This document shows, one piece after another, positions 4,787 through 64,000 of a stretch of 64,000 bases of DNA (positions are counted from its first letter, which is position 1; each line of letters opens with the position of its first letter). The notes under the pieces are model-generated. The model did no database searches and had not been told where the DNA came from. It saw nothing but the letters and a program-made list of their open reading frames with translations. Where the stretch lies: sequence record MZ501103; one strand, written 5' to 3'. The stretch is from Escherichia phage SelmaRatti. The position numbers were made by a program, and so were the translations under genes.

Positions 4787-4848
4787 ATTTAATCTCCTCT
4801 TGGTAAGTAAGTATAACTTCAGTGTTTCTTCTCTAACTTACCAATATA

Positions 4849-7259: not shown

Positions 7260-7290
7260 AGCCCCCTCCCCTTAGGTTTAATTTACCAGA

Positions 7291-8833: not shown

Positions 8834-8860
8834 ATTTCTTCCTTATCAATTTATATAAAT

Positions 8861-8889
8861 ATTATAGCAAGTATTTAAGCATTTAGCAA
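8861..8889 (-). promoter_or_regulatory. sigma70-type early promoter for ligase subunit B operon
   Basis: rc reads TTGCTA-17-TATAAT then ataaattga box. Confidence 0.55.
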
Positions 8890-9032
8890 CTACAATTTTA
8901 ACTAACTTTGCTTACCCTCGCCATAACTTTCTATCCCTCAACTGAATGATAATAGTATATACCTAAGCGGCGAAAATGTCAATAACCACTTTATAATTCC
9001 GATATGGTAGATGGGTAGCAAAGGGTTATGTA

Positions 9033-10004
9033 TTAATCGTATACTCGCTCTACTATACACGGGATTACACCACCAGCACGAATCACTCGAATTTGGCAAC
9101 CGATCTCTAGATCAAGAGAGTTAATATAATCAACGTTATTAAGAGTCGCTTTAACAATTGTAGCATCATCAATAATTACCGGTTCGAAATAACCAACTGG
9201 AGTTACTTTACCAGAAGCCCCTACCTGCCATTCAACTTTAGTAAGAGTTGTAATCTCGCCTTCTTCATCCTCTTTAATAGCGAATGCTCCGCGAGGGAAT
9301 TTATTAGTCCAGCCTTCTCGGAAGAATTTGTTGTTGTCATTAATACGAACAACTTTACCATCTGTCGGAATCCATTTAAAGAAGGAACGCACATTAACAA
9401 CTGTTAAGAAGTTCTCATTCTCTAGCCAAAGCATATCTTTTAAATACGTTTCTGTAATACCTACAGATTCAGCAGAACACTGGATACCATATGCAACGAA
9501 GATTAAACCACCTTCTCCGATACGTTGTACGAAATCATCACTATCTTTTAGGTTAATAGCACCAGAGGCAAAGTTACGTTTATTTTCTACTTCTTTTGTA
9601 ATTAGAACTTCACCAGTGATTTGAGTAGGTACTTTTTGGGAAATCTTTTTAGGGATGTTCAGCAATCTTACGTTGCTTGTGACATCATTCCCTAGAATAC
9701 CATTACCACGAGTTAGTGCTTGAACAAATTCGCCATTAATATATAACAAAGAAATCGCACAACCATCTAACTTATCAGTTTCTACCTGACCTAATGGGTT
9801 AAACGGAGGTTTATCCCCACGATTATAATAAACTTTCTGTAAAGAATACATACGATACAGATGTGGGATATCACCCTTAGGCCCGATCTCTTCTTCTAAC
9901 GGGAATCTTTTAATAAGACGATCATATTCTTCGTCAGAGATTAAAGACATTCCCTGGTAATACGCTTCTTGACAACGTTTAATAAAGTCTTTTATATTAG
10001 TCAT
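9033..10004 (-). CDS. NAD-dependent DNA ligase, N-terminal adenylation/OB portion (subunit A)
   Basis: Adenylation motif TDKLDGCAISL (KxDG) and LigA-like flanking sequence; separate ORF from the C-terminal part. Confidence 0.8.
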   Translation of the reverse strand: MTNIKDFIKRCQEAYYQGMSLISDEEYDRLIKRFPLEEEIGPKGDIPHLYRMYSLQKVYYNRGDKPPFNPLGQVETDKLDGCAISLLYINGEFVQALTRGNGILGNDVTSNVRLLNIPKKISQKVPTQITGEVLITKEVENKRNFASGAINLKDSDDFVQRIGEGGLIFVAYGIQCSAESVGITETYLKDMLWLENENFLTVVNVRSFFKWIPTDGKVVRINDNNKFFREGWTNKFPRGAFAIKEDEEGEITTLTKVEWQVGASGKVTPVGYFEPVIIDDATIVKATLNNVDYINSLDLEIGCQIRVIRAGGVIPCIVERVYD

Positions 10005-10277
10005 TTATTCTGCCTCATAGTACGTGGGTTGTCTAGTGGATCCGTGCCATGTAAAATTTTTGCAGAGATGCAAATACGTGGTTTTTACTAGCCTACCTGA
10101 CAATGGAGAGTATATTTCAGCTATTAATACTTCTTTTTCGTAATGAAGTGAAATCAGCTTATACCCACTTCTAGTTTTAGTATACTTTTCTCCATTAATC
10201 TTCTCCTCCCACATAAGTATAAGAGGCTGTCCGATATATGGGAAAGGTTTAAGTGTACTTATATTTATCTTTTTCAC
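10005..10277 (-). CDS. hypothetical protein (90 aa)
   Basis: ORF abutting ligase subunit A start; own upstream promoter. Confidence 0.4.
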   Translation of the reverse strand: MKKINISTLKPFPYIGQPLILMWEEKINGEKYTKTRSGYKLISLHYEKEVLIAEIYSPLSGRLVKTTYLHLCKNFTWHGSTRQPTYYEAE

Positions 10278-33037: not shown

Positions 33038-33090
33038 TAAACCAAGTTTAAACAAATTCAAATCTCAAATTTCATATAAGGAAGCAAATA

Positions 33091-33729
33091 ATGACTACTA
33101 GTATTTCTAAAACTCGCGCTCTGGCAACTATCAAATCTCTGGAAGCTAAAATCCGTAAAGCTACTGAACAACAGCTTCTGATCGCTGTTGGTGAAGGTAA
33201 GGATAAAAATAAGGTTGTAGTTGGCGCTGCAATCGAAGTAGACGATCTGTCTGCTCGTATTAAGACTGATTTCCAGTCTCTGCTGGATATGATGTCCCAG
33301 CGTGATCGTATCAAAGCTGCTCTGATTAAAAGCAATGCTGAAACAATCGTTGAGATTGGCTCTCGTAAGATGACTGTTGCGGAAGCAATTGAAGCTAAGC
33401 GTTCTATGGAACTTAAAGCCCAACTGCTGGATAACATGCGTAAGCAGTTCCATGCCGCTACGGTTAAGTTTAATACGCAGAAAGCACAGTTTGATGCTAA
33501 ATATGAGCGTTTGCAGGATAGCATGGCTACCCGCGATAAGAAAACTTCCGAAGATGAAGTTAAAATGCAGCTCAACCTGCTGGAACTCAAGAATACTCCA
33601 TTCTTGATTGACCCGCTGGAACTGGAAAAGCTGATTAAGCAGCACGACGAGGAATACCAGGACTTTGCAACAAATGTTGACTTTGTTCTGTCCGAGTCTA
33701 ACGCCTCTACCTTTATTGAAGTAGAGTAA
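33091..33729 (+). CDS. hypothetical coiled-coil protein (212 aa)
   Basis: RBS aaggaag; overlapping minus-strand ORFs have implausible composition. Confidence 0.5.
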   Translation: MTTSISKTRALATIKSLEAKIRKATEQQLLIAVGEGKDKNKVVVGAAIEVDDLSARIKTDFQSLLDMMSQRDRIKAALIKSNAETIVEIGSRKMTVAEAIEAKRSMELKAQLLDNMRKQFHAATVKFNTQKAQFDAKYERLQDSMATRDKKTSEDEVKMQLNLLELKNTPFLIDPLELEKLIKQHDEEYQDFATNVDFVLSESNASTFIEVE

Positions 33730-34112
33730 TAATTTAAAAGCTAGTAAATCGGTAGACGAAAGCCCAAGCATCTTACCTCGCAGCAGCGGTTGAAATACGA
33801 GGTTAAATAAGACCGCTGACCATACTATAAAGTATAATCTATTGGAGATTATGTTTATTACATCAGACACTTAATCTGACACGTAAAAACAAAGCGTCGT
33901 TGATATTACCGACACAACTTCAAAGATCAACATTTAAGTATGAAAGCTGAAAAGTTTAAAGAACTCAAACTTCTAAACTTCTAAAGCTAAAAGATGCAAA
34001 GTATTCGTTGATGATTCAAACCCTAGATCAAAGGTACATGGCTCGTAAGATATGGCCTGTGGCGCCTCTAGGCTGTTTATCGGTTTACTAGTTTCACAAT
34101 TTAAAAATGTAT

Positions 34113-37455: not shown

Positions 37456-37530
37456 CGGGGTGTAGTCTAAGGGAGAGGCAGGAGTCTTCTAAATTCCTTT
37501 ATGCAGGTTCGAATCCTGTCACCTCGGCCA
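37456..37530 (+). tRNA. tRNA-Arg (anticodon TCT)
   Basis: Hand-folded cloverleaf: acceptor cggggtg/cacctcg, anticodon loop cttctaa, T-arm gcagg-ttcgaat-cctgt, encoded CCA. Confidence 0.7.
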
Positions 37531-37564
37531 ATTTTATTAACTGTAACTAAAACAAAGGAAATAT

Positions 37565-38512
37565 ATGTTTAATACTAAAAATATGAAAGAACTAACTTCT
37601 GAGCAGAAAGTAATTCGTACTATTAAACGTTGGGGGATTGGTGCTGTAGTTGGTTTAGCAGGTTTAATCCTAGCTTTTAATTCATATACTATTGTTTCTG
37701 ATGGTACGGTTAAAACTCAAACATTCCTGGGTAAAGTAGACCCTAATCCAGTATTACCTGGTTTCCATATTGTAAACCCGTTTGCATCTTTCGATACTTT
37801 CAGTACAAAAGATATTGCTGTAAAATTAGATAAACTTCAGGTTCCTAGTCAGGATAAGTTTAAATCCACTGTTGACCTGACTGTTATGTTACAATTTGAT
37901 GGTTCTAAGGCACCGATCAACCGTATTAATGCAGGTACTCAGGATCAGGCTCTAGATAAGTACGTAACTGAAAAATTACTGTCCACTATTCGTGAGTTCG
38001 GTAAGTCTGTACCTAAAGCACAAGATTTATTTGATGCTAAAATTCAGGCTCAATTGCAAACTGCAATTCAACAGGAAGTTGAAGAGTATGCACGCCCATA
38101 TGGTTACACAGTTAAGCAGGTATTCCTTCAGGATATTACTTTGCCACCGGTAATCATGGAACAGGTACAGAATACCAAAGTTCGTGAAGAACAGGTTAAT
38201 GCTGCTAAAGCTGAATTAGCTCGTGTTGAACAGGAAGCACAGCAAAAAGTTAAACAAGCAGAAGCAGATCGTGAAGCTCGCAACAACCAAGCTATCGCTA
38301 ATGAACGTGACGCAGATGCTAAACTGTACGCAGCTAAGAAAGAAGCTGAAGCTAACGCCGCACTGCAACGTACCATTACTCCTGAGATGATTCGTTGGAA
38401 ACAACTGGAAGTTGAGATGATTCGTGCTCAGAAATATCAAGGTGGTGTGCCGCAGACTGTGGTTGGCACTGGTTACGATGGCCAGATGATTATGGATATG
38501 CGTAATAAGTAA
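37565..38512 (+). CDS. SPFH/band-7 membrane protein
   Basis: N-terminal TM helix, band-7-like core, C-terminal coiled coil. Confidence 0.55.
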   Translation: MFNTKNMKELTSEQKVIRTIKRWGIGAVVGLAGLILAFNSYTIVSDGTVKTQTFLGKVDPNPVLPGFHIVNPFASFDTFSTKDIAVKLDKLQVPSQDKFKSTVDLTVMLQFDGSKAPINRINAGTQDQALDKYVTEKLLSTIREFGKSVPKAQDLFDAKIQAQLQTAIQQEVEEYARPYGYTVKQVFLQDITLPPVIMEQVQNTKVREEQVNAAKAELARVEQEAQQKVKQAEADREARNNQAIANERDADAKLYAAKKEAEANAALQRTITPEMIRWKQLEVEMIRAQKYQGGVPQTVVGTGYDGQMIMDMRNK

Positions 38513-38588
38513 TATCCACGCGTAATATTCGAAGTAAGCCCTGTGTTTCCTGGAGAGCGCAGGCAATTAAATGAATTTATATAAAATT

Positions 38589-38621
38589 TTGCTTGTTTTT
38601 GCGCGTAAAATTTTATATAAT
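38589..38621 (+). promoter_or_regulatory. sigma70-type early promoter
   Basis: TTGCTT then TATATAAT; exact -10 register ambiguous. Confidence 0.45.
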
Positions 38622-38651
38622 ATTTACTCAAATTTGGAAGAATACGTTAAC

Positions 38652-39023
38652 ATGAATACTAATAAGAAAGGAAATATAGGGCTAGGAAGTGCGATTGCTC
38701 ACTTTACTAGTAAAGGTTTGATTGTTTCACTACCTTTAAATGACAGTCAAGATTACGATCTAATCGTAGATATGGGGGGTACTCTAAATAAAGTTCAGGT
38801 GAAATATACCTCCCAAAAGGCACCCTCTGGTAGTTATATTCTAGCTATGAGAAGTACAAGTGGCACTTCTAGAGTAGCGTATAAGACTCTTAATGAAACT
38901 AATATTGATTTAGTGTTTGTGTATACTGATCAGTATCAGTTGTTAATTCCAATTAAGAAATTAACTAATAAAAATCAAACTACCCTTACTAAAGAATTAG
39001 TACAAGAATTCCGAGTTATATAA
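38652..39023 (+). CDS. hypothetical protein, possible PD-(D/E)xK nuclease fold
   Basis: ATG 38652 chosen because the longer ORF starts inside the promoter; DYDLIVD...KVQVK motif. Confidence 0.4.
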   Translation: MNTNKKGNIGLGSAIAHFTSKGLIVSLPLNDSQDYDLIVDMGGTLNKVQVKYTSQKAPSGSYILAMRSTSGTSRVAYKTLNETNIDLVFVYTDQYQLLIPIKKLTNKNQTTLTKELVQEFRVI

Positions 39024-39025
39024 AA

Positions 39026-39115
39026 GGAAGAATACGTTAAAAGGTAAACGAGCTGATTGCTAATCAGTAGCTCTGAAATATAGCCTTGTGGGTTCGATTC
39101 CCACTTCTTCCGCCA
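39026..39115 (+). tRNA. tRNA-Ser (anticodon GCT), type II
   Basis: Acceptor ggaagaa/ttcttcc, anticodon loop ttgctaa, long variable arm, T-arm gtggg-ttcgatt-cccac, encoded CCA. Confidence 0.7.
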
Positions 39116-39121
39116 AACATA

Positions 39122-39196
39122 GGGTCGGTAGCTTAAAGTTAAAGCGGTGGCCTCATAAGCTAACGAGTAGGAGTTAGATTCTCCTCCGACCCACCA
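39122..39196 (+). tRNA. tRNA with anticodon CAT (Met or Ile2)
   Basis: Acceptor gggtcgg/ccgaccc perfect, anticodon loop ctcataa, T-arm aggag-ttagatt-ctcct, encoded CCA. Confidence 0.6.
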
Positions 39197-39211
39197 AATT
39201 AAGGAAATAAG

Positions 39212-39379
39212 ATGTATAGACATCCACCTCCGCCAACACGTCGTTCTAGAGAAGTTATCCTCATGGAATTGACTAAAAACTTCAAGGCAACTCTTGAAGA
39301 TAGAGATTTAGGCACAGATGAAGATGTTGATTTCATCTGTAAACTATTAAAAATGAAACTGGAGAAACAACATGGCTAA
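39212..39379 (+). CDS. small hypothetical protein (55 aa)
   Basis: RBS aagga; stop overlaps next ORF start. Confidence 0.3.
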   Translation: MYRHPPPPTRRSREVILMELTKNFKATLEDRDLGTDEDVDFICKLLKMKLEKQHG

Positions 39380-39578
39380 TCCTGAAATTACCGCACAACG
39401 TTTCATGCTTAAAGGCATGATTGCTGAGGCAGGTATGACTCAAGAAGTTGTAGATTTTCAAAAGCAATTCCTCAATATTCTCACTCAAGCCAAAGAGCTA
39501 GGAGAGAAAGAACATGGAGCAGCAATTATGGCTATATCTCTTATTAGTCTAGACTTGGCTGAAGAATCAGGAGTTTAA
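39372..39578 (+). CDS. hypothetical protein (68 aa)
   Basis: ORF. Confidence 0.4.
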   Translation: MANPEITAQRFMLKGMIAEAGMTQEVVDFQKQFLNILTQAKELGEKEHGAAIMAISLISLDLAEESGV

Positions 39579-39608
39579 CTCCTCCAAGCAGAAATTTTAA
39601 AAATGTAC

Positions 39609-39638
39609 TTGCCTTTTGCTTTAAATTTCTGATATAAT
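39609..39638 (+). promoter_or_regulatory. sigma70-type early promoter
   Basis: TTGCCT-18-TATAAT. Confidence 0.5.
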
Positions 39639-39649
39639 AGTTATATAAA

Positions 39650-39943
39650 TTGATGAGAGGAATCAGAATGTCAAAACGTGTTACAGCAACTGGTATTGAA
39701 AGTGTAATCTGCAAATCCTGGGAAGACAGGGAAGGTGAGATTGAATGGCTTTATTTCTATGATGTAGAACTTCTACCGGAAGTTAAAGCTAAATGTATTG
39801 AAGCTGGTATGGCTCCTGATGCTACTGCTGATGTTGAGATTATCATGAATAAGCTAGAGGGTCTGGTAATCACTGTTAGTGATGAGGGCGAAGAAGTCTT
39901 CGAACTTCCGTTCTCCTTAACTGTCACTCCTAAGTTCGACTAA
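39650..39943 (+). CDS. hypothetical protein (97 aa)
   Basis: Promoter 39609-39638, RBS gagagg. Confidence 0.45.
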   Translation: MMRGIRMSKRVTATGIESVICKSWEDREGEIEWLYFYDVELLPEVKAKCIEAGMAPDATADVEIIMNKLEGLVITVSDEGEEVFELPFSLTVTPKFD

Positions 39944-39979
39944 CTAATACAGCACTGAGCAAGTTCTTCAAAATTTTAC

Positions 39980-40008
39980 TTGCTCAGTGCCATAAAACTT
40001 GATATAAT
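39980..40008 (+). promoter_or_regulatory. sigma70-type early promoter upstream of tRNA-Tyr
   Basis: TTGCTC-17-TATAAT; -35 lies inside an 11-bp inverted repeat. Confidence 0.5.
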
Positions 40009-40071
40009 AGTTATCTAATTTGGAAACATATTTAAAAGTGTTTAAACTAGTATTTGAATACTTTTAAATGT

Positions 40072-40155
40072 GCATCGTTGGCAGAATGGCTATTGCAGCG
40101 GTCTGTAAATCCGTGCCCTTCGGGGTTGGTGGTTCAAATCCATCACGATGCACCA
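40072..40155 (+). tRNA. tRNA-Tyr (anticodon GTA), long variable arm
   Basis: Acceptor gcatcgt/acgatgc perfect, anticodon loop ctgtaaa, variable hairpin gccc-ttcg-gggt, encoded CCA. Confidence 0.7.
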
Positions 40156-40172
40156 AATTAAAGGAGCTGCTG

Positions 40173-40445
40173 ATGCATCCTGAAAACTTCTTTATTTACT
40201 GCGAGGATAAGTAGCTGAAACGTAGAATTAACAAAGTCTATCATTATCGTGCTAGTCAACAGCCTTATATATACGCTTTTGACGGTGATCACATTCCACT
40301 AGAACAATTATCCTGTGATTACATGATATTGAAGAACTTTGACGAGACAAAGATCTCAAGCGTTCATAATCGACAGAATCCATTAACGTGGAAATATAAG
40401 AAGAAAAAGAAAGGCATCAAATTCTTAAAAAATGTAGTTGCTTAG
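40173..40445 (+). pseudogene. ORF with strong RBS interrupted by in-frame TAG at codon 14 (40212-40214); pseudogene or amber read-through
   Basis: aaggag then ATG 40173; 13 codons, TAG, then 76 further sense codons in frame. Confidence 0.3.
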
Positions 40446-40466
40446 TTTCCAAAAGTTCTGTATAAT
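40438..40466 (+). promoter_or_regulatory. sigma70-type early promoter upstream of tRNA-Cys
   Basis: TTGCTT-17-TATAAT then cataaattgaa. Confidence 0.55.
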
Positions 40467-40514
40467 AATTACATAAATTGAACTGGAGAAGCAACATGAC
40501 AGAACAAGGTAAAT

Positions 40515-40587
40515 CGACCGTTGGCTGAATTGCTTAGGTGAAGGATTGCAAATCCTTTTTATGTGAGTTCAAATCTCATGCGGTCGT
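40515..40587 (+). tRNA. tRNA-Cys (anticodon GCA)
   Basis: Acceptor cgaccgt/gcggtcg (one G-U), anticodon arm aagga-ttgcaaa-tcctt perfect, T-arm gtgag-ttcaaat-ctcat. Confidence 0.65.
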
Positions 40588-40596
40588 CTAAATTTT

Positions 40597-40680
40597 AGGG
40601 TCGTTAGCCAAGTGGTTTGGCGGCGGATTGTTAATCCGTGTCGAAAGACAACGTAGGTTCGATTCCTGCACCCGCTGCCA
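40597..40680 (+). tRNA. tRNA-like gene, candidate Asn (GTT); acceptor stem imperfect
   Basis: D-arm, anticodon arm gcgga-ttgttaa-tccgt, T-arm and CCA fold well, but acceptor pairs only 4/7 and an extra gtc-gaaa-gac hairpin sits in the variable region. Confidence 0.35.
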
Positions 40681-40700
40681 TCTTAATAGAGGATTTCGAA

Positions 40701-40865
40701 ATGAAAGTATTTCGATTAGTAGTAAGTGATCGACGTTCTAGCAAAGATCGTTCGAAGTATACCTTAGCCCACTATGGTAAAGATGAAAAAGAAGTAATGG
40801 TGGAGTTTGGGATTAATCATCGCTACTTAGAAGTTTACTCTATTAAGGAAGTTTATCCGTATTAA
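40701..40865 (+). CDS. small hypothetical protein (54 aa)
   Basis: RBS agagga then ATG 40701; the longer ORF would start inside the preceding tRNA. Confidence 0.35.
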   Translation: MKVFRLVVSDRRSSKDRSKYTLAHYGKDEKEVMVEFGINHRYLEVYSIKEVYPY

Positions 40866-40943
40866 GGGTCGTTAGCTCAATTGGTTAGTAGCACTTGCCT
40901 TTTAAGCAATAGGTTGAAGGTTCGAGTCCTTCACTACCCACCA
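40866..40943 (+). tRNA. tRNA-Lys (anticodon TTT)
   Basis: Acceptor gggtcgt/actaccc (one mismatch), anticodon loop cttttaa, T-arm gaagg-ttcgagt-ccttc, encoded CCA. Confidence 0.6.
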
Positions 40944-40950
40944 AATTTTT

Positions 40951-41024
40951 GCTCGGTTAGTTTAATGGGAGAACCCCGTCTTTACACGGCGGTTGCGATA
41001 GTTCGATTCTATCACCGAGTACCA
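40951..41024 (+). tRNA. tRNA-Val (anticodon TAC)
   Basis: Acceptor gctcggt/accgagt, D-arm gttt/gaac, anticodon arm ccgtc-tttacac-ggcgg, T-arm gatag-ttcgatt-ctatc, encoded CCA. Confidence 0.75.
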
Positions 41025-41043
41025 ATTAACTCAAAATAAGGAA

Positions 41044-41409
41044 TTGCAAATGCAATTATCAAGCAAGATTCAAGGTTATTTCGGTCATGTGACAATGGAG
41101 TTCGCTATCTCTAAAGGTTGGGATTTCGAGCAAGATCTAGCTGAGTTCTACAAAGATATTGATCTGAACGTACCGTATATGGGACTTTCTACTGGTCAGG
41201 AGATCACAGAAGCCGATGTATTCAAGGCAAGTCAAGGTGAGATAACACCTAGTTTTGCCACTTTTTGGAGTGGCTTCACAATTAAAGAAGAAGCTCCAGA
41301 TGATGATGTATTTATGCAAAGCATGCACTCTGGGAGTTCTGATATGTTATTTGTTAAAGATGTACGACATATCCAAGAAGTGGTAAAAACGTATTTGCAA
41401 AATGCTTAA
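41044..41409 (+). CDS. hypothetical protein (121 aa)
   Basis: ORF with RBS aaggaa. Confidence 0.45.
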   Translation: MQMQLSSKIQGYFGHVTMEFAISKGWDFEQDLAEFYKDIDLNVPYMGLSTGQEITEADVFKASQGEITPSFATFWSGFTIKEEAPDDDVFMQSMHSGSSDMLFVKDVRHIQEVVKTYLQNA

Positions 41410-41423
41410 TTTCTTGTTATAAT
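41395..41423 (+). promoter_or_regulatory. sigma70-type early promoter driving unannotated RNA region
   Basis: TTGCAA-17-TATAAT then tataaattgatg. Confidence 0.5.
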
Positions 41424-41756
41424 ATTTATATAAATTGATGCGAAAATAGCTGCCTAGATACCAGGTGTATGACGTCTACACTAGCAGAGCTACCGAAAAA
41501 GAGATCCTCAGGATAAACGTCGTAGCAAAATTAGTCTGGTATCCATCAATTTAGTTCACTAAGGTATTAGCTCGACCTAGGACTGGCTGCCAAAAAGCAC
41601 GACCCCTACGACTCGGGAGAAGTTCTAGATTAGTCCACTAGATTCAGCGGCAACTGAATAGTGTATCGGGTTTGTGAAGAGCGGCTATCCTCTACTGGCT
41701 AATGTATGAGGTTAGTACGCACACCGAGCTAATAGCCTTAGTAAACTAAAGAATTT

Positions 41757-41831
41757 GGGCGAATAGTGTCAGCGGGAGCACACCAGACTTGCAATCTGGG
41801 AGGGAGGGTTCGAGCCACTCTTTGTCCACCA
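41757..41831 (+). tRNA. tRNA-Ala (anticodon TGC)
   Basis: Acceptor gggcgaa/tttgtcc (G-U pairs incl. G3-U70), anticodon arm ccaga-cttgcaa-tctgg perfect, T-loop ttcgagc, encoded CCA. Confidence 0.6.
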
Positions 41832-41955
41832 AATTAAAAAGAATGCGCGCGATTGACGGAATAGGTATACGTGTAAGCCTTAGAAGTTGAATTTTGAGGG
41901 TTCGAATCCCATCGAGGCGTAACTGCCTGGTGTGATAGAGGCATCATCTTATTAT

Positions 41956-42046
41956 TGGAAGAGCAAATCGAATTGGCGACGAAAACCGCTGGGAAAGTGG
42001 CTGACTGGTAAAACGGCTTGAGAGTTCAAATCTCTCCTCTTCCGCC
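41956..42046 (+). tRNA. type II tRNA-like gene (Leu/Ser class?), anticodon arm not resolved
   Basis: Perfect acceptor ggaagag/ctcttcc, T-arm gagag-ttcaaat-ctctc, CCA, D-loop gaattggcgac; no canonical anticodon stem found by hand. Confidence 0.35.
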
Positions 42047-42059
42047 AAACAATTTATAA

Positions 42060-42154
42060 GGTAGGTCAATCCAACGGCTGGCGATGGACTCCGACTTGAA
42101 ATCGGTTGATCGTAGTGATACGGTGTAAGGGTTCGATCCCCTTACCTACCTCCA
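42060..42154 (+). tRNA. tRNA-Ser (anticodon TGA), type II
   Basis: Acceptor ggtaggt/acctacc perfect, anticodon loop cttgaaa, variable hairpin cgta-gtga-tacg, T-arm aaggg-ttcgatc-ccctt, CCA. Confidence 0.65.
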
Positions 42155-42628
42155 AATCTTGAAGTATGCCGGAATCGGTAGACGGGGCTTCCTAAAGGGC
42201 GTAAGGGGAACATCCACTCCTCATAAGATACCCGAAAACGAGGCTGAGATAAATGGTCTATCTCGTGAAGGTTCAAGTCCTTCTGCTTCTTGATACCTCT
42301 ATGGCTCAAAGTGTAACGGTGCTATTTGATGCTCTTAGTAAGACTTTCCCGACATGCGTTCGGGGGTAAGCTGCTAAGACTAGAGTAGAAGAGTTTCGGA
42401 GAGCCGCCACAATTGAAAATTCGTACTCGTCTTGAGCTGCGTGCAATAGGAGATAACTTGATTAGTATTCTAGAACATGCTAATTGAGGAAGGTTTCTCT
42501 AACCCTGCGAGTTTTCAATTGTGGCTATATCATAATTGGTTAATGATCCTGATTGTGAATCAGGCCTTCCAAGCCTCGCTGAGTAGGGTTCGATTCCCTC
42601 TAGCAGCTCCAACTTTAAGGAAACATTT

Positions 42629-59129: not shown

Positions 59130-59570
59130 ATGAGAGAGAAAGTAAATGAATTATTAATCGAGGAAGCTAACAACTTTCCAATAAATAGATTCATTAAATC
59201 GGATGGATCTATTAATAGAACTAAGATTAAGCAGCTACATCCCGACTTTCAACAAGAAGCACTAAACCTTATATTTATCAAGAAAGCTGTTGCAGTTCAT
59301 GGAGCTTTCTTTGGGTATGAACGTGTAAATTATAAGACAATGCAACAGCAAGTCGAGATCTACTGCCCGGACCATGATGGTTATTACTGGCAAACTGCTA
59401 GATCTCATTTAGAAGGGCACGGTTGTCGACTGTGTGCACACAAGGTTGTGCAGCGTGTCACGGATTATGGAACTTATACCGTGCCATCATGTTACCATAA
59501 ATTTGTAATTGACGATAATCATATAGTTTGGTATAATAAGTTTTCAAAGTTAAGAATGGAGATAAAATAA
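59130..59570 (+). CDS. hypothetical protein with Cys/His cluster
   Basis: ATG directly after previous stop; CPDHDGYYWQ...GHGCRLCAHK. Confidence 0.4.
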   Translation: MREKVNELLIEEANNFPINRFIKSDGSINRTKIKQLHPDFQQEALNLIFIKKAVAVHGAFFGYERVNYKTMQQQVEIYCPDHDGYYWQTARSHLEGHGCRLCAHKVVQRVTDYGTYTVPSCYHKFVIDDNHIVWYNKFSKLRMEIK

Positions 59571-59586
59571 TGGAAACACTTTTTTA

Positions 59587-59751
59587 ATGCTCGTAGGTTC
59601 GTTAGTAGTTATATTAGCACTTCTACTAATCTGCAATATTCTTAATAATAAGAATTTAGAGTTAAAGTGTGAGAACCAAATCCTTAATCGTGAACTTACA
59701 CAATATAATGTAGCAGCTCGCAAGCTGTTAGACAAACTGGAGAATAAATAA
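59587..59751 (+). CDS. small membrane-anchored protein (54 aa)
   Basis: Below the ORF-track cutoff; TAATG overlaps at both ends. Confidence 0.3.
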   Translation: MLVGSLVVILALLLICNILNNKNLELKCENQILNRELTQYNVAARKLLDKLENK

Positions 59752-60362
59752 TGTTTACACAACAAACCATTAAAGTAGTAGCAGATCATGAACTCGACAC
59801 ATGGGATTACAGCTTTAAAGATCTGACTGCTACAGTACAGTTTAAATCTATGCAACTGTCGTTTTTGCACACTGATCTTCAAGGTTGTAAAGAGTTTCAG
59901 GCTAAGCTCATCGATGCTCGTAAGATTTTTGGTACGGCTCGCATCCCGGCTGATAACCTGATTAATGCACTAATCGATGCAGGGTACAAACTCGTGAAGA
60001 CCGAGGTGAACCGCCCTAGTACTCCAGTGACTATTAGAGATCCGTGGCAGTCAGGGACAATCTCAATGCTGAATAACTCCGATAAAAGATTAATGTCGGA
60101 TATGCACAATGTTCATTGTGGTGGTGTGGTAAGCAATACGCAATCATATAAGTTTGGTGAAGATTGCGGCCCTTCTGTACAGCTGCAACATACCCAAGAG
60201 GCTTTTGAATCTGATATGCGAAGCGTAGCACCTGAGGATGCTGGAGTTTCTAGGAGTTCTGTTTGTACTATTCATTTTAATAATCTTAGGCCTGGGAATA
60301 TAAATGATACTATCCTTGAAGCGTTGGGGGCTGCTCTTAATGAAGATAAGAGAGGTAGTTAA
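59751..60362 (+). CDS. hypothetical protein (203 aa)
   Basis: ORF, coupled start. Confidence 0.45.
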   Translation: MFTQQTIKVVADHELDTWDYSFKDLTATVQFKSMQLSFLHTDLQGCKEFQAKLIDARKIFGTARIPADNLINALIDAGYKLVKTEVNRPSTPVTIRDPWQSGTISMLNNSDKRLMSDMHNVHCGGVVSNTQSYKFGEDCGPSVQLQHTQEAFESDMRSVAPEDAGVSRSSVCTIHFNNLRPGNINDTILEALGAALNEDKRGS

Positions 60363-60709
60363 TGATATTTGGTAAAACAAAAATAACTTCTGCTGGTGAC
60401 GATTTAATTACTCTTAGTCTCTACTATAAAGATGAAAATGTAGAATTAGAAACATTAGAGTATATTCTAATAACTACTAATAAGCCAAAAATAGGAGAGT
60501 TATTTGATATAATATCTATAGTCTCTGCTAGGGAAGATATTCCAAGTATAACACCAAAGAATATAGCTCACTTAGCACAACAATTAGGAATCCTATGGTA
60601 TAAAGTAGATCTTCCAGCTAAAGAAAGAACCAAAGGAACCTTTGCAGAAGTTGCAAGAAAACCTAAGCCAGAAAAGAAAGAAACAGGGGAGCAAGCGTCT
60701 GATATATGA
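60362..60709 (+). CDS. hypothetical protein with C-terminal tail ...TGEQASDI
   Basis: Last 8 residues identical to the helicase (5736-7259) C-terminus, encoded with different codons. Confidence 0.45.
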   Translation: MIFGKTKITSAGDDLITLSLYYKDENVELETLEYILITTNKPKIGELFDIISIVSAREDIPSITPKNIAHLAQQLGILWYKVDLPAKERTKGTFAEVARKPKPEKKETGEQASDI

Positions 60710-61419
60710 TTAAAGAAGCTGAAAAATTAAAACGTCTCATCCAGTTAGCGCGTGGTGCTACACAAAAGAGTCTTTCACAGCTAACTGATGAAGAAAAATA
60801 TGCAGTAATGTTTTTAGGAGATCATTATCCTGCTAAGTGGGATAAGGGTAAGATCAAATATGATCGTGATGCAAAACAAGTAGTTTGGTCAGGCTCATAT
60901 GTAGAGGTGAATAAAGCATTAAAGGCTTTAGATCCTGCAGCAAAAGGTTTCTCTTCTAATGCTATTCATATTCTAATTGATGAAGATCTCCCAAGATTTA
61001 AGGAAGCATCATTTAAAGAAGCATTAGCTAGCGAAGATCTTATTCCTTTCAAACATGGCAAATATGCACATCTTCCTCCACTAGAAAAAGAGAAACCAAC
61101 TCTAGTTAAAGATGAAGTTTATCGTGGGATTGGCACAATGCTAGCGAGTTTGACTGTAGCTCTCCATAAAGATCTAGAGTTAACGCCCTTAGAAAATGCT
61201 GTGCATTTCATGTGCCATAAATATGAGGATACATTTAAAGAACTATGTAAGTCGCTAGGAATGCCAAGTTACACGATATTAAACTACGCTCCTGAGTATA
61301 CTAGAGCAGCTCGCGGAACTATGGATTACGATGATACAGGATCAACTGCTTCCTATTTAGCAACTTATATCTACTTCGCATCCTTAGGTATCAAACTCAA
61401 ATCCAAGAAGGAGGAATAA
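60706..61419 (+). CDS. hypothetical protein (237 aa)
   Basis: Last plus-strand gene before the non-coding repeat locus. Confidence 0.45.
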   Translation: MIKEAEKLKRLIQLARGATQKSLSQLTDEEKYAVMFLGDHYPAKWDKGKIKYDRDAKQVVWSGSYVEVNKALKALDPAAKGFSSNAIHILIDEDLPRFKEASFKEALASEDLIPFKHGKYAHLPPLEKEKPTLVKDEVYRGIGTMLASLTVALHKDLELTPLENAVHFMCHKYEDTFKELCKSLGMPSYTILNYAPEYTRAARGTMDYDDTGSTASYLATYIYFASLGIKLKSKKEE

Positions 61420-61437
61420 AAGTTAACAAAATTTTCT

Positions 61438-61466
61438 TGACAACTCATTGCGGCACATGTTATAAT
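61438..61466 (+). promoter_or_regulatory. near-consensus sigma70 promoter with no ORF downstream
   Basis: TTGACA-17/18-TATAAT; terminator about 165 nt downstream. Confidence 0.5.
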
Positions 61467-61603
61467 AATCTCATAGATTAACAACTACTCTAGTTGATTA
61501 ACTCTAGGGGCGATGATTATTACACGAATGTCTCGTATAGCTTGCGGCTGAGCAACAGCGGTATGACGGCATGAGTACTCACGTAATTAATCACGCGCCC
61601 CCA

Positions 61604-61640
61604 GGAGAGACTCTCATGAAATTGGGGGTCTCTTTTTCTT
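61604..61640 (+). terminator. rho-independent terminator closing the ORF-less transcription unit
   Basis: agagac...gtctct stem then tttttcttt. Confidence 0.5.
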
Positions 61641-61893
61641 TATATTATTTAAATATTTAAATATTTTTAATGGCAATATCTGTGTTCAAGATGATACACC
61701 GGTTGCCGCTCATCTGCTAGGATGGCACAACACTTTCTAGTAGACTCCTAAGTTTCTAGGAAAACTCTCACTTTCTAGGGCAGTTTCTCTCCAACGTTAC
61801 ATATCCTAGGCCGGTTTTCCTATACAGGGCGGTTATGGGGAGGGCGGTTATTTCTAGAAGACATTTTTTGAAAACATTTTTCCAGAAATTACT

Positions 61894-62495
61894 GTCGGAT
61901 TTGCACCTTGTGTTTCTAGAAATTTATGGTCGGATTTGCACAATCGCCTAAGTTTTTAGGAACATATAATCTCCTGAAAATGGCAGCATTATTTCGGGCC
62001 GAAGGCCCATGATTGCCTGAGTTTTTAGGGCCACAGAAATTTTCACTTGTCAAGCTATTTTGCCCCATTTTGCTAATAAAATTTTACTTTTTCTGCACCT
62101 ATCTCAAATTAACCCAAATTATCTCAACTCTTCCCCAAAATCCCCGCAAATCGGGTGCCCCGCACCAAACATGCGCCCCTCTCACAGTTCCCTCAAATTT
62201 CTCTCGCTATCTCACCTTCACTACAAACCTATACAATCACACACCATCTCATCGAAGTCACAAAAATTTCATCGGATTCGCACAGCTCAACACATGTCGG
62301 ATTTGCACATACTCTAGCTAATTCCACAGGATTCGAACGCAGTTCGTGATTGCTGGAGTTTTTAGGGAGACAGATTCGTCACTCTCACGAATTTATAAAT
62401 TTTTTTCGGGTCGGATTTGCACACTACCAAAAATTGTCGGATTTGCACATACATGCCCGCACGTAACACCCGTGGAGCATTGTCGGATTTGCACA
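61894..62495. repeat. seven direct copies of a 13-bp iteron-like repeat GTCGGATTTGCACA
   Basis: Copies at 61894, 61929, 62272 (variant), 62296, 62410, 62436, 62483, all same orientation; interspersed with repeated TTTCTAG(G/A) and GTTTTTAGGG motifs. Confidence 0.7.
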
Positions 62496-62520
62496 AAAGC
62501 GCAGGGCAATTGCCCTGCTC

Positions 62521-62700
62521 GCCTGAATGCGAATGATAATGAGAATCAATCTCGTTTAAAAAGCTGAATGCGAATGATAATGATTCGCATTTAAGAAAGG
62601 GAATGAGAACTATTCAAGAAGTGAAATGATTCTCATTTAAAAAGTGGAGTGATTATCGGTTAGCTAGTGAAATGCGAATGATAATGATTCGCATTTAAAA
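62521..62700. repeat. three copies of GAATGCGAATGATAATGA, two extended to perfect palindromes
   Basis: Copies at 62525, 62566, 62671; AATGCGAATGATAATGATTCGCATT is an inverted repeat; related palindrome aatgagaa...ttctcatt at 62611-62637. Confidence 0.7.
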
Positions 62701-62728
62701 ATGGAAGTGAGAAACACTATTATTTAAG

Positions 62729-62810
62729 TTATCCACAGACTTATCAACAGCACGATTTGACTTGACAGAATCCTAGCCATTTTGAGGCGTTATTAACAGA
62801 CTTATCCACA
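62729..62810 (+). promoter_or_regulatory. two consensus DnaA boxes (TTATCCACA) plus degenerate copies
   Basis: TTATCCACA at 62729-62737 and 62802-62810; variants ttatcaaca and ttatcctac adjacent. Confidence 0.5.
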
Positions 62811-63078
62811 GCTTATCCTACTGTATAAATATACAGTATTCCTATGTAGTGAATAATTCTAATATAGGCCTAAAACGTCCTGAATCGCATTCTAACGCGT
62901 TTAATTTTGGTGGAGGTATTTTAATATGGGGAAATTTGAGGAAGGCCATAAAAGGTGGGGCCAGTAGTTGCGCCCCGTGATTATTAGTGGTAGATATATT
63001 TTTGCCAATAGCGGCGGATACTGTCGCCACCAGCGGAATCATTCACAGCCTCAACATTACCCGCGAAAATATATAATC

Positions 63079-63423
63079 TCATTGTGCCACCTTTCGAAAC
63101 GCTATTTCAATACTATCCGCAGTGGATTGAATATATGCGCCTTTCATTATCAGGCGCTCGGTGCATATCTTGCGAAAAATGTTGATAAAATCATCTTCAT
63201 TTTCTGCAATTAATGCCTCACCCATAACCTGAACGTCACAAGACCCAAAAGTTAAAAATTGAAACGCTAGTTCACGGGCGACAACGGCAGAAATTTTATA
63301 ATGCGCCTTACCCTCATAAATATTAACCACGCCTTTATAAACTGGTGAAAGCTGATTTAAATAGTTTGCTAATAATGCCGGACGGCAATTAGCAACAAAA
63401 CGATTGCCCTCATAAATAACCAT
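63079..63423 (-). CDS. hypothetical protein (114 aa), higher-GC block
   Basis: ORF with GC content and codon choice distinct from the rest of the window. Confidence 0.35.
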   Translation of the reverse strand: MVIYEGNRFVANCRPALLANYLNQLSPVYKGVVNIYEGKAHYKISAVVARELAFQFLTFGSCDVQVMGEALIAENEDDFINIFRKICTERLIMKGAYIQSTADSIEIAFRKVAQ

Positions 63424-63546
63424 TTTATAACCTCCCGATCAGATAGCCTGATAAAAGCATAAAGATACCCAACGAAAGAGGGTCATTCTTAAATAAGGTG
63501 GCGATAAAACCGCCAGCCATTGCAAGGAGAACAACAATAACGCTTT

Positions 63547-63759
63547 TCATAGTACCCCACGAAACGCAGCGTAAAAGGTGGCAAAATGTTTAACCGTTTC
63601 AGCGATCACGTTGCCGCGCTTATCAAATTTTTTCTCGGTAACACGAAAGGCATTTTTGTTACGTGCTACATATTCGATTTTACAATCTGGACGCTCGAAC
63701 GTGTTAACATCCACCAGCTTAAAGCCTTTCGAACGTGCAAGAGAAACGTTGCGTATCAT
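63547..63759 (-). CDS. hypothetical protein (70 aa)
   Basis: ORF, same higher-GC block. Confidence 0.3.
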   Translation of the reverse strand: MIRNVSLARSKGFKLVDVNTFERPDCKIEYVARNKNAFRVTEKKFDKRGNVIAETVKHFATFYAAFRGVL

Positions 63760-63761
63760 TT

Positions 63762-63944
63762 TTATTCTCCTTTACTAATCATGCAGCCCAGCAGATAAGA
63801 AAATACAGCAATGCCAGCGCCAATAGTAACCATTGGTTTTGTATTTACTAAACCGCAATAAGAATCTTGAATACCATAAGCGGTGGCGAAAAGAGTCAGA
63901 ATAGCGCCCAAGATACCCGCCAGAATAGCTCGAAAAATAACCAT
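63762..63944 (-). CDS. small hydrophobic protein (60 aa)
   Basis: Two predicted TM helices. Confidence 0.3.
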   Translation of the reverse strand: MVIFRAILAGILGAILTLFATAYGIQDSYCGLVNTKPMVTIGAGIAVFSYLLGCMISKGE

Positions 63945-64000
63945 TTTTATTTCCCCTAGTTAGTGGGTGATACTGTATATCCCCCGTTATTACTTACATT

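What the first reader, a model, noticed from the sequence alone, without database searches (positions are those of the whole stretch)
62900..64000. Compositional shift and minus-strand ORFs at the window end
After the repeat locus the GC content rises and codon choice resembles enterobacterial genes more than the rest of the phage. The three minus-strand ORFs have no recognisable motifs. This may be the start of the terminal-repeat/pre-early region or a horizontally acquired block.
Basis: seen in the sequence. Interest (0 to 1): 0.45.

Follow-up and report, generated by a model that had tools for sequence, protein, structure and literature searches.

The report
T5-type phage pre-early host-takeover genes
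The end of the window is an ordinary, well-conserved piece of the "first-injected" terminal-repeat region of a T5-like coliphage. It carries small host-takeover genes, one of them the known Ung-dependent DNA nickase, and their host-like codon choice is real and shared by the whole pre-early gene class rather than a sign of gene theft.

Summary
Window 62,900-64,000 is the reverse complement of T5 coordinates about 7,850-8,730. This is the distal part of the rightward pre-early operon inside the long terminal repeat of a Tequintavirus, probably Escherichia phage SelmaRatti/Bas34.

It holds five tightly packed minus-strand ORFs, not three:
- 013-like, a two-TM membrane protein
- 014-like, a 70-aa basic protein
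- a 41-aa two-TM miniprotein
- 015-like, 114 aa, the experimentally characterised Ung-dependent AP-site nickase
- a doubtful 32-aa ORF

A hairpin and then the injection-stop repeats follow. T5.016 and T5.017 are deleted.

By homology, the inner edge of the repeat lies at about 62,028, so the region is about 0.9-2 kb inside the repeat, not at its start.

The GC rise is not significant (0.406 versus 0.387, z = 0.84). The codon shift toward E. coli usage is real. It is a property of all pre-early genes in T5, and of a Klebsiella relative at equal GC3. AGA and CTA are avoided.

I infer selection for the unaided host tRNA pool, because the phage tRNA genes arrive only with the second-step DNA. Horizontal acquisition is not supported.

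Side finding: RefSeq and PHROGs attach the nickase label to the 70-aa neighbour.

The parts
63762..63944 (-). Homologue of T5.013: a 60-aa protein with two hydrophobic (transmembrane) segments.
   Evidence: tblastn gives 95% identity to T5.013. It hits phrog_5607 at E = 5e-31. Hydrophobic windows lie at residues 1-17 and 41-57. Substitutions against T5 by codon position are 0/2/11. T5 gene 013 is toxic and lytic when expressed alone (bioRxiv 10.64898/2026.04.02.716235).
63547..63759 (-). Homologue of T5.014: a 70-aa basic protein (pI 10.2) with a small alpha+beta fold and unknown function. RefSeq and PHROGs label this family as the Ung-dependent endonuclease, probably in error.
63425..63550 (-). 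A 41-aa miniprotein with two hydrophobic segments. It is absent from T5 and present in HdH2, Kenya-K18, FGS017, and (per GenBank notes) SPC35 and AKFV33.
   Evidence: It hits phrog_19184 at E = 1e-26. The ORF is intact in three relatives, with substitutions of 2/2/3, 2/3/7 and 2/2/10 by codon position. T5 lacks the 110-bp segment. Its start overlaps the stop of the 014 homologue by 4 nt.
63079..63423 (-). Homologue of T5.015: a 114-aa Ung-dependent AP-site endonuclease (nickase).
   Evidence: 89.5% identity to T5.015 over the full length, E = 6e-68. It hits phrog_4379 at E = 5e-63. UniRef names this family 'DNA-(apurinic or apyrimidinic site) endonuclease'. The sequence is identical to QXV84438.1, bas34_0146 of Escherichia phage SelmaRatti. 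Substitutions are 4/4/25 to 4/5/38 by codon position. A strong GGGAGG Shine-Dalgarno motif lies upstream. The function of T5.015 is described in PMC8201957.
62984..63082 (-). A 32-aa ORF ('ORF017' of the AY587007 T5 record). Its coding status is uncertain.
   Evidence: It hits phrog_22819 at E = 4e-21. The frame is kept in four relatives, but third-position bias is weak: 1/3/4, 2/5/5, 1/4/5 and 2/3/9. An AAGGTGG motif lies 5 nt upstream of the ATG.
62989..63042 (-). Remnant of T5.016: only the first 18 codons. It heads the non-coding 66-aa ORF at 62842-63042.
   Evidence: tblastn matches T5.016 residues 1-18 only, at 72% identity; T5.017 gives no hit. T5 8733-9334 is replaced by 77 bp at window 62913-62990. 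The rest of the ORF shows substitutions mainly at codon position 1.
62946..62976 (-). GC-rich hairpin (GGGGCGCAACTACTGGCCCC) followed by ACCTTTTAT. This is the probable weak intrinsic terminator or 3' end of the operon.
   Evidence: The hairpin appears in the MFE fold of the minus strand, in the same position as the T5 terminator after T5.017 and the homologous HdH2 hairpin (T5 terminator 9275-9296). The consensus scanner did not call it, because its T-tract has only 4 T.
62029..62945 (.). Context: the non-coding injection-stop-signal (ISS) repeat region, which forms the inner end of the terminal repeat. The predicted repeat boundary is at 62,028.
   Evidence: T5 ISS 9140-10149 and LTR end 10219 map to window 62,098 and 62,028. 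T5's annotated major nick at 9748/9749 maps to 62,499/62,498, in locally identical sequence. Repeat families are listed.
63994..64000 (-). The last codons and stop of the T5.012 homologue, cut by the window end.
   Evidence: Window 64000 aligns to T5 7848, and T5.012 ends at 7854. The minus-strand sequence reads AATGTAA.

Best explanation
The region is the promoter-distal part of the rightward pre-early operon (genes 012-017 in T5 numbering). It lies inside the long direct terminal repeat of a T5-like phage (genus Tequintavirus, probably Escherichia phage SelmaRatti/Bas34), read here in reverse complement.

Shown:
- It is orthologous and syntenic with T5.013, T5.014 and T5.015, plus a lineage-variable 41-aa membrane miniprotein and a 32-aa ORF.
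- These genes are under purifying selection.
- T5.016 and T5.017 are deleted.
- A hairpin ends the operon, and the injection-stop repeats follow.

From published work on T5:
- This DNA is on the first 8% of the genome to enter the cell and is transcribed by host RNA polymerase before the rest of the genome is delivered.
- gp015 binds host uracil-DNA glycosylase and nicks the abasic sites it creates in dUMP-containing host DNA. This arrests replication and division.
- gp013 is a toxic two-TM membrane protein.
- Genes 012-017 are dispensable in the laboratory.

Inferred here: these ORFs have host-like codon usage, and especially avoid AGA and CTA, because pre-early genes must be translated by the unaided host tRNA pool. 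The phage tRNA cluster lies at window 37.4-42.6 kb, at least 19 kb beyond the repeat boundary, so it enters only with the second-step DNA.
For: Identity and synteny:
- Megablast finds 444 phage records, 91 of them covering at least 80% of the query.
- Window 62990-64000 aligns to T5 8733-7848, and window 59229-62942 aligns to HdH2 13000-9265.
- tblastn identities to T5.013, T5.014 and T5.015 are 95%, 98.6% and 89.5%.
- All five ORFs have PHROG hits.

Repeat location:
- The T5 LTR is annotated as 1-10219 with the ISS at 9140-10149.
- The two HdH2 ends are 100% identical over 10,166 bp.
- Both inner boundaries map to window 62,028.

Coding status: third-position substitution bias, and Shine-Dalgarno motifs with overlapping stop/start codons.

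Function:
- PMC8201957 describes T5.015.
- bioRxiv 10.64898/2026.04.02.716235 reports 013 and 015 toxicity and dispensability.
- UniRef names the 114-aa family an AP endonuclease.

Codon usage (mean log ratio of E. coli to phage synonymous usage per codon):
- Window ORFs score -0.04 against -0.245 +/- 0.085 for null blocks; 0.9% of blocks reach the observed value.
- In T5, pre-early genes score -0.014, early -0.206 and late -0.284 (Mann-Whitney U test, MWU, p = 1e-7 and 8e-7).
- All 16 pre-early genes lie above the GC3 regression line of the other genes (p = 1.5e-9).
- AGA accounts for 3 of 85 Arg codons in pre-early genes, 90 of 625 in early genes and 120 of 405 in late genes.
- In Klebsiella phage VAC51, at equal GC3, the pre-early region scores -0.006 against -0.101 for early genes (p = 0.002). 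AGA is 1.2 against 7.5 per 1000 codons.
- The window's tRNA genes include tRNA-Arg(UCU) and lie at 37,456-42,611.
Against: - Terminal duplication cannot be shown for this phage itself. The window holds one copy and no reads are available.
- The exact 114-aa protein is not in the contig index, so I could not inspect the rest of its pre-early region.
- No promoter for these ORFs lies inside the window. By homology it is upstream of 011/012, beyond the window end.
- The hairpin at 62,957-62,976 has a weak T-tract and was not called by the scanner.
- The codon argument is correlative. ATA and GGA are not depleted relative to early genes. Some shifts (CAG down, TTT up) go away from, or overshoot, E. 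coli usage.
- The VAC51 pre-early set was delimited by synteny only, and E. coli usage served as a proxy for Klebsiella.
- The ORF proxies used for the window include a few spurious antisense ORFs.
Confidence: 0.93

Rival explanations
1. The block was acquired horizontally from an enterobacterial genome or another mobile element, which would explain its host-like codon usage.
For: Codon usage sits midway between phage-typical and E. coli-typical values. GC is slightly above the window mean. Some identical proteins are filed under Salmonella or E. coli accessions.
Against: - The GC excess is not significant (z = 0.84), and at 0.41 GC is far from that of E. coli genes. GC3 is 0.37 against 0.57.
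- The exhaustive protein searches return only a narrow family. All named members and all structural relatives are phage proteins.
- The 'bacterial' entries sit on contigs of about 110 kb, which is phage-genome size. PMC8201957 also judged such entries misannotated phage DNA.
- The same codon shift holds for all 16 non-homing pre-early genes of T5, not for this block alone.
- The one clearly mobile gene in the repeat, the HNH endonuclease hegG, is the exception, with phage-typical or even more AT-rich usage.
Confidence: 0.03
2. The identity of the block is as in the best explanation. The codon shift, however, reflects a regional mutational or recombinational history of the terminal repeat rather than selection for the host tRNA pool. 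Possible causes are gene conversion between the two copies, different exposure to host repair, avoidance of restriction sites, or different expression level.
For: - In T5 the shift goes with a higher GC3: 0.39 against 0.30-0.33.
- Much of the shift is T-ending to C/G-ending codons (CGT to CGC, GGT to GGC, GCT to GCG).
- ATA and GGA are not depleted relative to early genes.
- Published work shows that the FST region is under special constraints, such as restriction-site avoidance (PMC10644984 and PMC13250531).
Against: - All 16 T5 pre-early genes lie above the GC3-versus-score regression of the other genes (p = 1.5e-9).
- In VAC51 the shift persists with no GC3 difference (0.467 against 0.473).
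- AGA, read by a phage-encoded tRNA-Arg(UCU), rises from 1.4 (pre-early) to 6-7 (early) to 13 (late) per 1000 codons in T5. It rises from 1.2 to 7.5 to 11 in VAC51.
- hegG lies in the same repeat and does not share the shift.
Confidence: 0.3
3. The ORFs are chance open frames in non-coding terminal-repeat DNA.
For: They are short (32-114 aa) and have no hits in the local Pfam, NCBIfam or PADLOC copies. One ORF in the region (62842-63042) is indeed spurious.
Against: - The 60-, 70- and 114-aa ORFs show strong third-position substitution bias and intact frames in four relatives at 84-95% nucleotide identity.
- They have Shine-Dalgarno motifs and coupled stop/start codons.
- AF2 models are confident: pLDDT 94.7 and 84.7.
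- Published expression phenotypes exist for 013 and 015.
- Ten pre-early proteins were detected by proteomics in the sister phage Bas33.
Confidence: 0.02

Closest known systems
Bacteriophage T5 pre-early (first-step-transfer) genes T5.013-T5.015 in the left terminal repeat (NC_005859, 7904-8644)
   Same: The gene order, orientation relative to the injection-stop repeats, sizes and sequences all match (95%, 98.6% and 89.5% amino-acid identity). The position relative to the repeat's inner boundary and to the conserved nick site is also the same.
   Different: This phage has an extra 41-aa membrane ORF between 014 and 015, as in HdH2, Kenya-K18 and FGS017 (and, per GenBank notes, SPC35 and AKFV33). 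It lacks T5.016 apart from 18 codons, and lacks T5.017 entirely.
T5.015, the Ung-dependent AP-site nickase (Mahata et al. 2021, PNAS, PMC8201957)
   Same: The window ORF 63079-63423 is a full-length orthologue of 114 aa at 89.5% identity. All residues that are invariant across relatives down to 26% identity are present: L18, L22, G38, E69, T88 and E89.
Direct terminal repeat / FST region of sister phages Bas33 and BF23
   Same: Pre-early genes lie in two divergent transcription units inside a repeat of about 10 kb. Two-fold read coverage with sharp edges was shown for Bas33 (PMC13250531; PMC10644984).
   Different: Those data come from other isolates. No reads exist here for the window's phage.
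Stage-dependent codon usage in tRNA-bearing lytic phages (early genes host-like, late genes matched to phage tRNAs, as described for T4). This comparison is recalled from general knowledge and was not checked here.
   Same: There is a gradient from pre-early through early to late genes, both in similarity to host usage and in use of codons read by phage tRNAs.
   Different: In T5-like phages the first gene class is physically separated from the tRNA genes by two-step DNA entry, which gives a mechanical reason for the bias. I found no paper stating this for T5.

Membership tests
Tequintavirus pre-early (FST) gene block inside the long terminal repeat | Collinear nucleotide homology with the T5 LTR between gene 012 and the injection-stop signal | tested here: met
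   Window 62990-64000 aligns to T5 8733-7848 (87-89% identity). Window 61685-62913 aligns to T5 10608-9334 (86% identity).
Tequintavirus pre-early (FST) gene block inside the long terminal repeat | Protein-level orthology with T5.013, T5.014 and T5.015 | tested here: met
   tblastn identities are 95%, 98.6% and 89.5% over full lengths. The PHROG hits are phrog_5607, phrog_4227 and phrog_4379.
Tequintavirus pre-early (FST) gene block inside the long terminal repeat | The DNA is present twice, as a direct repeat at both genome ends, in this phage | not testable with these tools
   Only one copy lies in the window and no reads are available. The inference comes from T5 (annotated LTR and RTR), HdH2 (10,166 bp identical at both ends) and Bas33 coverage. 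The predicted inner boundary is window 62,028.
Tequintavirus pre-early (FST) gene block inside the long terminal repeat | Expressed from first-step-transfer DNA before the rest of the genome enters | not testable with these tools
   Known for T5, BF23 and Bas33 from the literature. No expression data exist for this phage.
T5.015-type Ung-dependent AP endonuclease (phrog_4379; precomputed Pfam PF26847) | Full-length sequence membership in the family of the characterised protein | tested here: met
   phrog_4379 hit at E = 5e-63, covering 1-114 of 114. Identity to T5.015 is 89.5%. All homologues carry PF26847.1. The locus-tag numbering in PMC8201957 and the 2026 preprint matches NC_005859. The UniRef name agrees.
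T5.015-type Ung-dependent AP endonuclease (phrog_4379; precomputed Pfam PF26847) | Binds Ung and nicks abasic sites | not testable with these tools
   This is a biochemical property, shown only for T5.015 itself.
Classical AP endonuclease / AP lyase folds (ExoIII/EEP, EndoIV TIM barrel, EndoIII HhH, HNH) | Structural similarity of the 114-aa protein to one of these folds | tested here: not met
   [not shown]
Horizontally acquired (host-derived) island | [quoted passage not shown] | tested here: not met
   GC is 0.406 against 0.387 +/- 0.023, z = 0.84.
Horizontally acquired (host-derived) island | Homologues in host chromosomes, or patchy distribution within the phage lineage | tested here: not met
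   The searches return only a narrow family whose named members and structural relatives are all phage proteins. Genes 013-015 occur in more than 75% of Tequintavirus genomes.

The most novel reading that the evidence does not exclude
Pre-early (first-step-transfer) genes of T5-like phages are, as a class, codon-adapted to the unaided host tRNA pool. They avoid AGA and CTA and sit about halfway to E. coli synonymous usage. The proposed reason is that two-step DNA entry keeps the phage's own tRNA genes outside the cell while these genes are translated. The gradient from pre-early through early to late genes would then be a direct genomic footprint of the injection programme. It could serve to predict FST gene sets and repeat boundaries in uncharacterised Demerecviridae.
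Probability: 0.5. Interest if true: 0.45.

Novelty: already known. Interest (0 to 1): 0.2.

Why it matters
For the genome scan, this closes the finding. The window end is the well-studied FST/pre-early region of a T5-like phage, not a foreign island.

Three by-products have some value:

1. It has a simple mechanistic rationale: the tRNA genes arrive later. I did not find this stated in the searchable literature.

2. The functional label 'endonuclease nicking abasic sites generated by host Ung' is attached in RefSeq and PHROGs, and hence in pharokka-type annotations, to the 70-aa T5.014 family. The characterised T5.015 is the 114-aa neighbour, which PHROGs lists as 'unknown function'. Users of those annotations are being misdirected.

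3. The nickase has a confidently predicted fold, a four-fold hairpin-helix repeat, with no solved relative. This makes it an attractive structural target.

Tried and rejected
- Local Pfam, NCBIfam and PADLOC scans of the five ORFs gave no meaningful hits.
- An Rfam scan of 61,300-64,000 gave only chance-level hits.
- The look-up of encoding contigs for the exact 114-aa protein found nothing on record, so the rest of this phage's pre-early region could not be read.
- A PDB sequence search with the 015 profile found nothing.
- The AFDB50 fold library was unavailable.
- Davison 2015 (PMC4743489), the review of T5 pre-early functions and the ISS, is not held. The SI of PMC8201957 (primers, mutant residues) is not held either. 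The 014/015 label conflict was therefore settled from locus-tag logic and UniRef names, not from the cloned sequence.
I replaced it with usage measured on 42 MG1655 genes (r = 0.978 with the memory table) and the results did not change.
- The greedy ORF proxies for the window's genes include a few spurious antisense ORFs, for example 33058-33771. I therefore rely mainly on annotated T5 and VAC51 CDS.
- I considered and rejected the 66-aa ORF 62842-63042 as a gene, on its substitution pattern and because it overlaps the hairpin.
Full report
WHAT IS THERE

The window is a T5-like phage. Window 62,800-64,000 matches 444 phage records by megablast, nearly all T5-like phages of Salmonella, Escherichia and Klebsiella. 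The matches sit at about 6-10 kb from the left end of records deposited in the T5 orientation, and on the opposite strand. Window 40,000-64,000 aligns to Escherichia phage HdH2 positions 34,328-7,935 at 92.8% identity.

Against T5 (NC_005859), window 62,990-64,000 corresponds to T5 8,733-7,848, and window 61,685-62,913 corresponds to T5 10,608-9,334. RefSeq annotates T5 1-10,219 as the left terminal repeat carrying the first-step-transfer (FST) DNA. The pre-early genes T5.011-T5.017 lie on the plus strand, and the injection stop signal (ISS) lies at 9,140-10,149. The finding is therefore the reverse complement of the distal part of the rightward pre-early operon.

ANATOMY

There are five consecutive minus-strand ORFs, not three.

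| Window coordinates | Size | Identity | Evidence |
|---|---|---|---|
| 63,762-63,944 | 60 aa | T5.013-like, two hydrophobic segments | 95% identity to T5.013, phrog_5607 |
| 63,547-63,759 | 70 aa, pI 10.2 | T5.014-like | 98.6% identity to T5.014, phrog_4227 |
| 63,425-63,550 | 41 aa | Miniprotein with two hydrophobic segments | phrog_19184; absent from T5, present in HdH2, Kenya-K18 and FGS017 |
| 63,079-63,423 | 114 aa | T5.015-like | 89.5% identity to T5.015, phrog_4379 |
| 62,984-63,082 | 32 aa | Doubtful ORF | phrog_22819 |

The ORFs are separated by 2 nt, a 4-nt ATGA overlap, 1 nt, and another 4-nt ATGA overlap. Each is preceded by a Shine-Dalgarno-like motif: GGGGA, AAGGAG, GGGG, GGGAGG and AAGGTGG.

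I compared the ORFs with four relatives at 84-95% nucleotide identity.
- Substitutions in the 70-aa and 114-aa ORFs are overwhelmingly at third codon positions, for example 1/0/16 and 4/5/38.
- The 60-aa ORF (0/2/11 against T5) and the 41-aa ORF (2/2/10) also look coding.
- The 32-aa ORF is equivocal.
- The 66-aa ORF at 62,842-63,042 is not coding in its frame, with position-1 bias of 7/3/2 to 9/3/3. It begins with the first 18 codons of T5.016 and then runs into non-coding DNA.

T5.017 is absent. T5 8,733-9,334 is replaced by 77 bp in the window.

Directly after the 32-aa ORF there is a GC-rich hairpin followed by ACCTTTTAT (62,946-62,976, minus strand). It occupies the position of the terminator that follows T5.017 in T5, and a homologous hairpin is present in HdH2. 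Its T-tract is weak and the consensus scanner did not call it.

No promoter for the operon lies in the window. By homology it is upstream of 011/012, beyond position 64,000. The last seven bases of the window are the end of the 012 homologue.

WHERE THE REPEAT STARTS

- The T5 LTR end (10,219) maps to window 62,028.
- The HdH2 repeat end maps to the same position. I determined it as 10,166, from 100% identity of HdH2 1-10,166 with 109,955-120,120.
- The DTR end annotated for Kenya-K18 maps to 62,129.
- T5's annotated major nick (9,748/9,749) maps to 62,499/62,498, in locally identical sequence (AAAAGCGCAGGG).

The finding lies 0.9-2 kb inside the repeat, not at its start.

Duplication in this very phage cannot be tested without reads.

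The 114-aa protein is identical to QXV84438.1 (bas34_0146, Escherichia phage SelmaRatti, 107,080 bp), the only accession listed for that exact sequence. The 70-aa protein is identical to QXV84440.1 among others. The window is therefore probably from Bas34 or a near-identical isolate.

COMPOSITION

The GC statement does not hold up as an anomaly. The region has GC 0.406 against a window mean of 0.387 (sd 0.023 for 1,101-bp windows). That gives z = 0.84, and 19% of windows are as high or higher. The repeat locus itself reaches 0.41-0.43.

The codon statement does hold up. The measure is the mean log ratio of E. coli to phage synonymous usage per codon. E. coli usage was measured on 42 MG1655 genes (14,748 codons).
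- The five pooled ORFs score -0.03 to -0.04.
- Random blocks of equal length from the window's other genes score -0.245 +/- 0.085, and 0.9% of blocks reach the observed value.
- E. coli genes themselves score +0.27.

The shift is not specific to this block. The table shows annotated T5 genes by class.

| T5 gene class | Score | GC3 | AGA share of Arg codons |
|---|---|---|---|
| Pre-early (16 genes, excluding hegG) | -0.014 | 0.39 | 3 of 85 |
| Early | -0.206 | 0.33 | 90 of 625 |
| Late | -0.284 | 0.30 | 120 of 405 |

- Pre-early genes differ from early and late genes at Mann-Whitney p = 1e-7 and 8e-7.
- All 16 pre-early genes lie above the regression of score on GC3 fitted to the other genes (p = 1.5e-9).
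- CTA is also depleted.
- The exception inside the repeat is hegG, an HNH homing endonuclease, which scores -0.26.

In a second genus, Klebsiella phage VAC51 (Sugarlandvirus), CDS of the syntenic pre-early region score -0.006 against -0.101 for early genes (p = 0.002). GC3 is equal (0.467 against 0.473). AGA is 1.2 against 7.5 per 1000 codons, and CTA 8.2 against 16.5.

The window's own tRNA genes, including tRNA-Arg(UCU), lie at 37,456-42,611, at least 19 kb beyond the repeat boundary. In T5 the tRNA cluster lies at 28-41 kb.

My inference is that pre-early genes must be translated by host tRNAs alone, because the phage tRNA genes are still outside the cell. This is correlative, and three caveats apply.
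- ATA and GGA are not depleted relative to early genes.
- Part of the shift is a T-to-C/G change at third positions.
- A regional mutational history remains a rival explanation.

I found no paper making this point.

FUNCTION

Published work identifies T5.015 as a toxic pre-early protein. It binds host uracil-DNA glycosylase and nicks the abasic sites that Ung creates, which arrests replication and division (PMC8201957). A 2026 preprint confirms that 013 (lytic, two TM segments) and 015 are toxic when expressed alone. It also shows that 13 of the 17 pre-early genes, all except A1, A2, hdi and 009, are dispensable in the laboratory. Genes 013-015 are present in more than 75% of Tequintavirus genomes, whereas 016 is rare.

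Which window ORF is the nickase needs care. RefSeq and PHROGs put the label 'endonuclease nicking abasic sites generated by host uracil glycosylase Ung' on T5.014, the 70-aa family phrog_4227, and list phrog_4379 (114 aa) as unknown. The evidence favours the 114-aa protein.
- Both papers use NC_005859 locus-tag numbering. The excluded genes 001, 004, 006 and 010 are dmp, A1, A2 and hegG, and gp013 has two TM segments.
- UniRef names the 114-aa family 'DNA-(apurinic or apyrimidinic site) endonuclease'.
- The 70-aa protein is 'ORF015' in the alternative T5 record, which is a plausible source of the mix-up.

I therefore assign the nickase to 63,079-63,423.

STRUCTURE

I built a 20-sequence alignment that includes relatives down to 26% identity, found by the exhaustive search.
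- AF2 gives the 114-aa protein pLDDT 94.7 and pTM 0.87.
- The fold is a four-fold repeat of a beta-hairpin plus a helix, and the repeat is also visible in the sequence (VIYEG.., NIYEG.., VQVMGE.., LIMKGA..).
- Foldseek against viral models finds the fold only in Demerecviridae: Pantoea AAS21, Pectobacterium My1 and DU_PP_V, and Providencia PR1.
- Invariant or near-invariant residues include E37, G38, E69, E74, T88, E89, R90 and R110.

The 70-aa protein (pLDDT 84.7) is a small helix/five-strand/helix domain. It has only weak, generic matches to immunity and inhibitor proteins. This gives no support for a nuclease role.

VERDICT

The finding is a correct sighting of an ordinary, already known feature: the pre-early genes in the terminal repeat of a T5-like phage.
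- The horizontal-transfer reading is rejected.
- The 'start of the repeat' reading is off by about 0.9 kb.
- The GC shift is within normal variation.
- The codon-usage impression is real, and it generalises to the whole pre-early class. That is the only part with some novelty.

Noticed in passing
window 63547-63759 versus 63079-63423 (and NC_005859 T5.014 versus T5.015): RefSeq and PHROGs (phrog_4227) label the 70-aa T5.014 family as the Ung-dependent AP-site endonuclease. By locus-tag numbering in both papers, and by UniRef names, the characterised T5.015 is the 114-aa neighbour (phrog_4379, listed as 'unknown function'). The 70-aa protein is called 'ORF015' in the alternative T5 record, which probably explains the misplaced label.
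   Followed up: yes
[not shown]
   Followed up: partly
window 61437-61636 (+): A perfect sigma-70 promoter (TTGACA, 18-nt spacer, TATAAT, with an upstream TG) lies at 61437-61466. About 150 nt without an ORF follow, then a terminator-like hairpin at 61603-61636. This sits between the last early gene and the ISS repeats and may be a small RNA. It has no Rfam match.
   Followed up: partly
window 61650-62850: The ISS-type repeat region contains GTCGGATTTGCACA x6, AGTTTYTAGG x4 (one copy ends exactly at the predicted repeat boundary, 62,028), three Fur-box-like palindromes AATGCGAATGATAATGA, and DnaA-box matches TTATCCACA at 62729 and 62802. T5's annotated major nick maps to 62498/62499, in an identical AAGCGCAGGG context.
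   Followed up: partly
window 62913-62990: Relative to T5 and HdH2, this phage has lost T5.017 and all but the first 18 codons of T5.016. That leaves a spurious 66-aa ORF (62842-63042) fusing the 016 start to non-coding DNA.
   Followed up: yes
L001 (T5) 5411-5929: hegG, the HNH homing endonuclease inside the terminal repeat, is the only pre-early-region gene without the host-like codon shift (score -0.26, GC3 0.24). This fits a recent mobile insertion.
   Followed up: no
window 33058-33870 (-) versus 33091-33729 (+): A long antisense ORF overlaps a 212-aa plus-strand ORF. It has no PHROG hit and scored as the most 'E. coli-like' of my gene proxies, so it is almost certainly a spurious frame. 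It shows that ORF-length proxies add noise to codon statistics.
   Followed up: partly
window 37456-42611: ARAGORN finds only 10 tRNA genes in this window, against about 24 annotated in the equivalent T5 region. The set includes tRNA-Arg(UCU). The reduced number was not examined.
   Followed up: no
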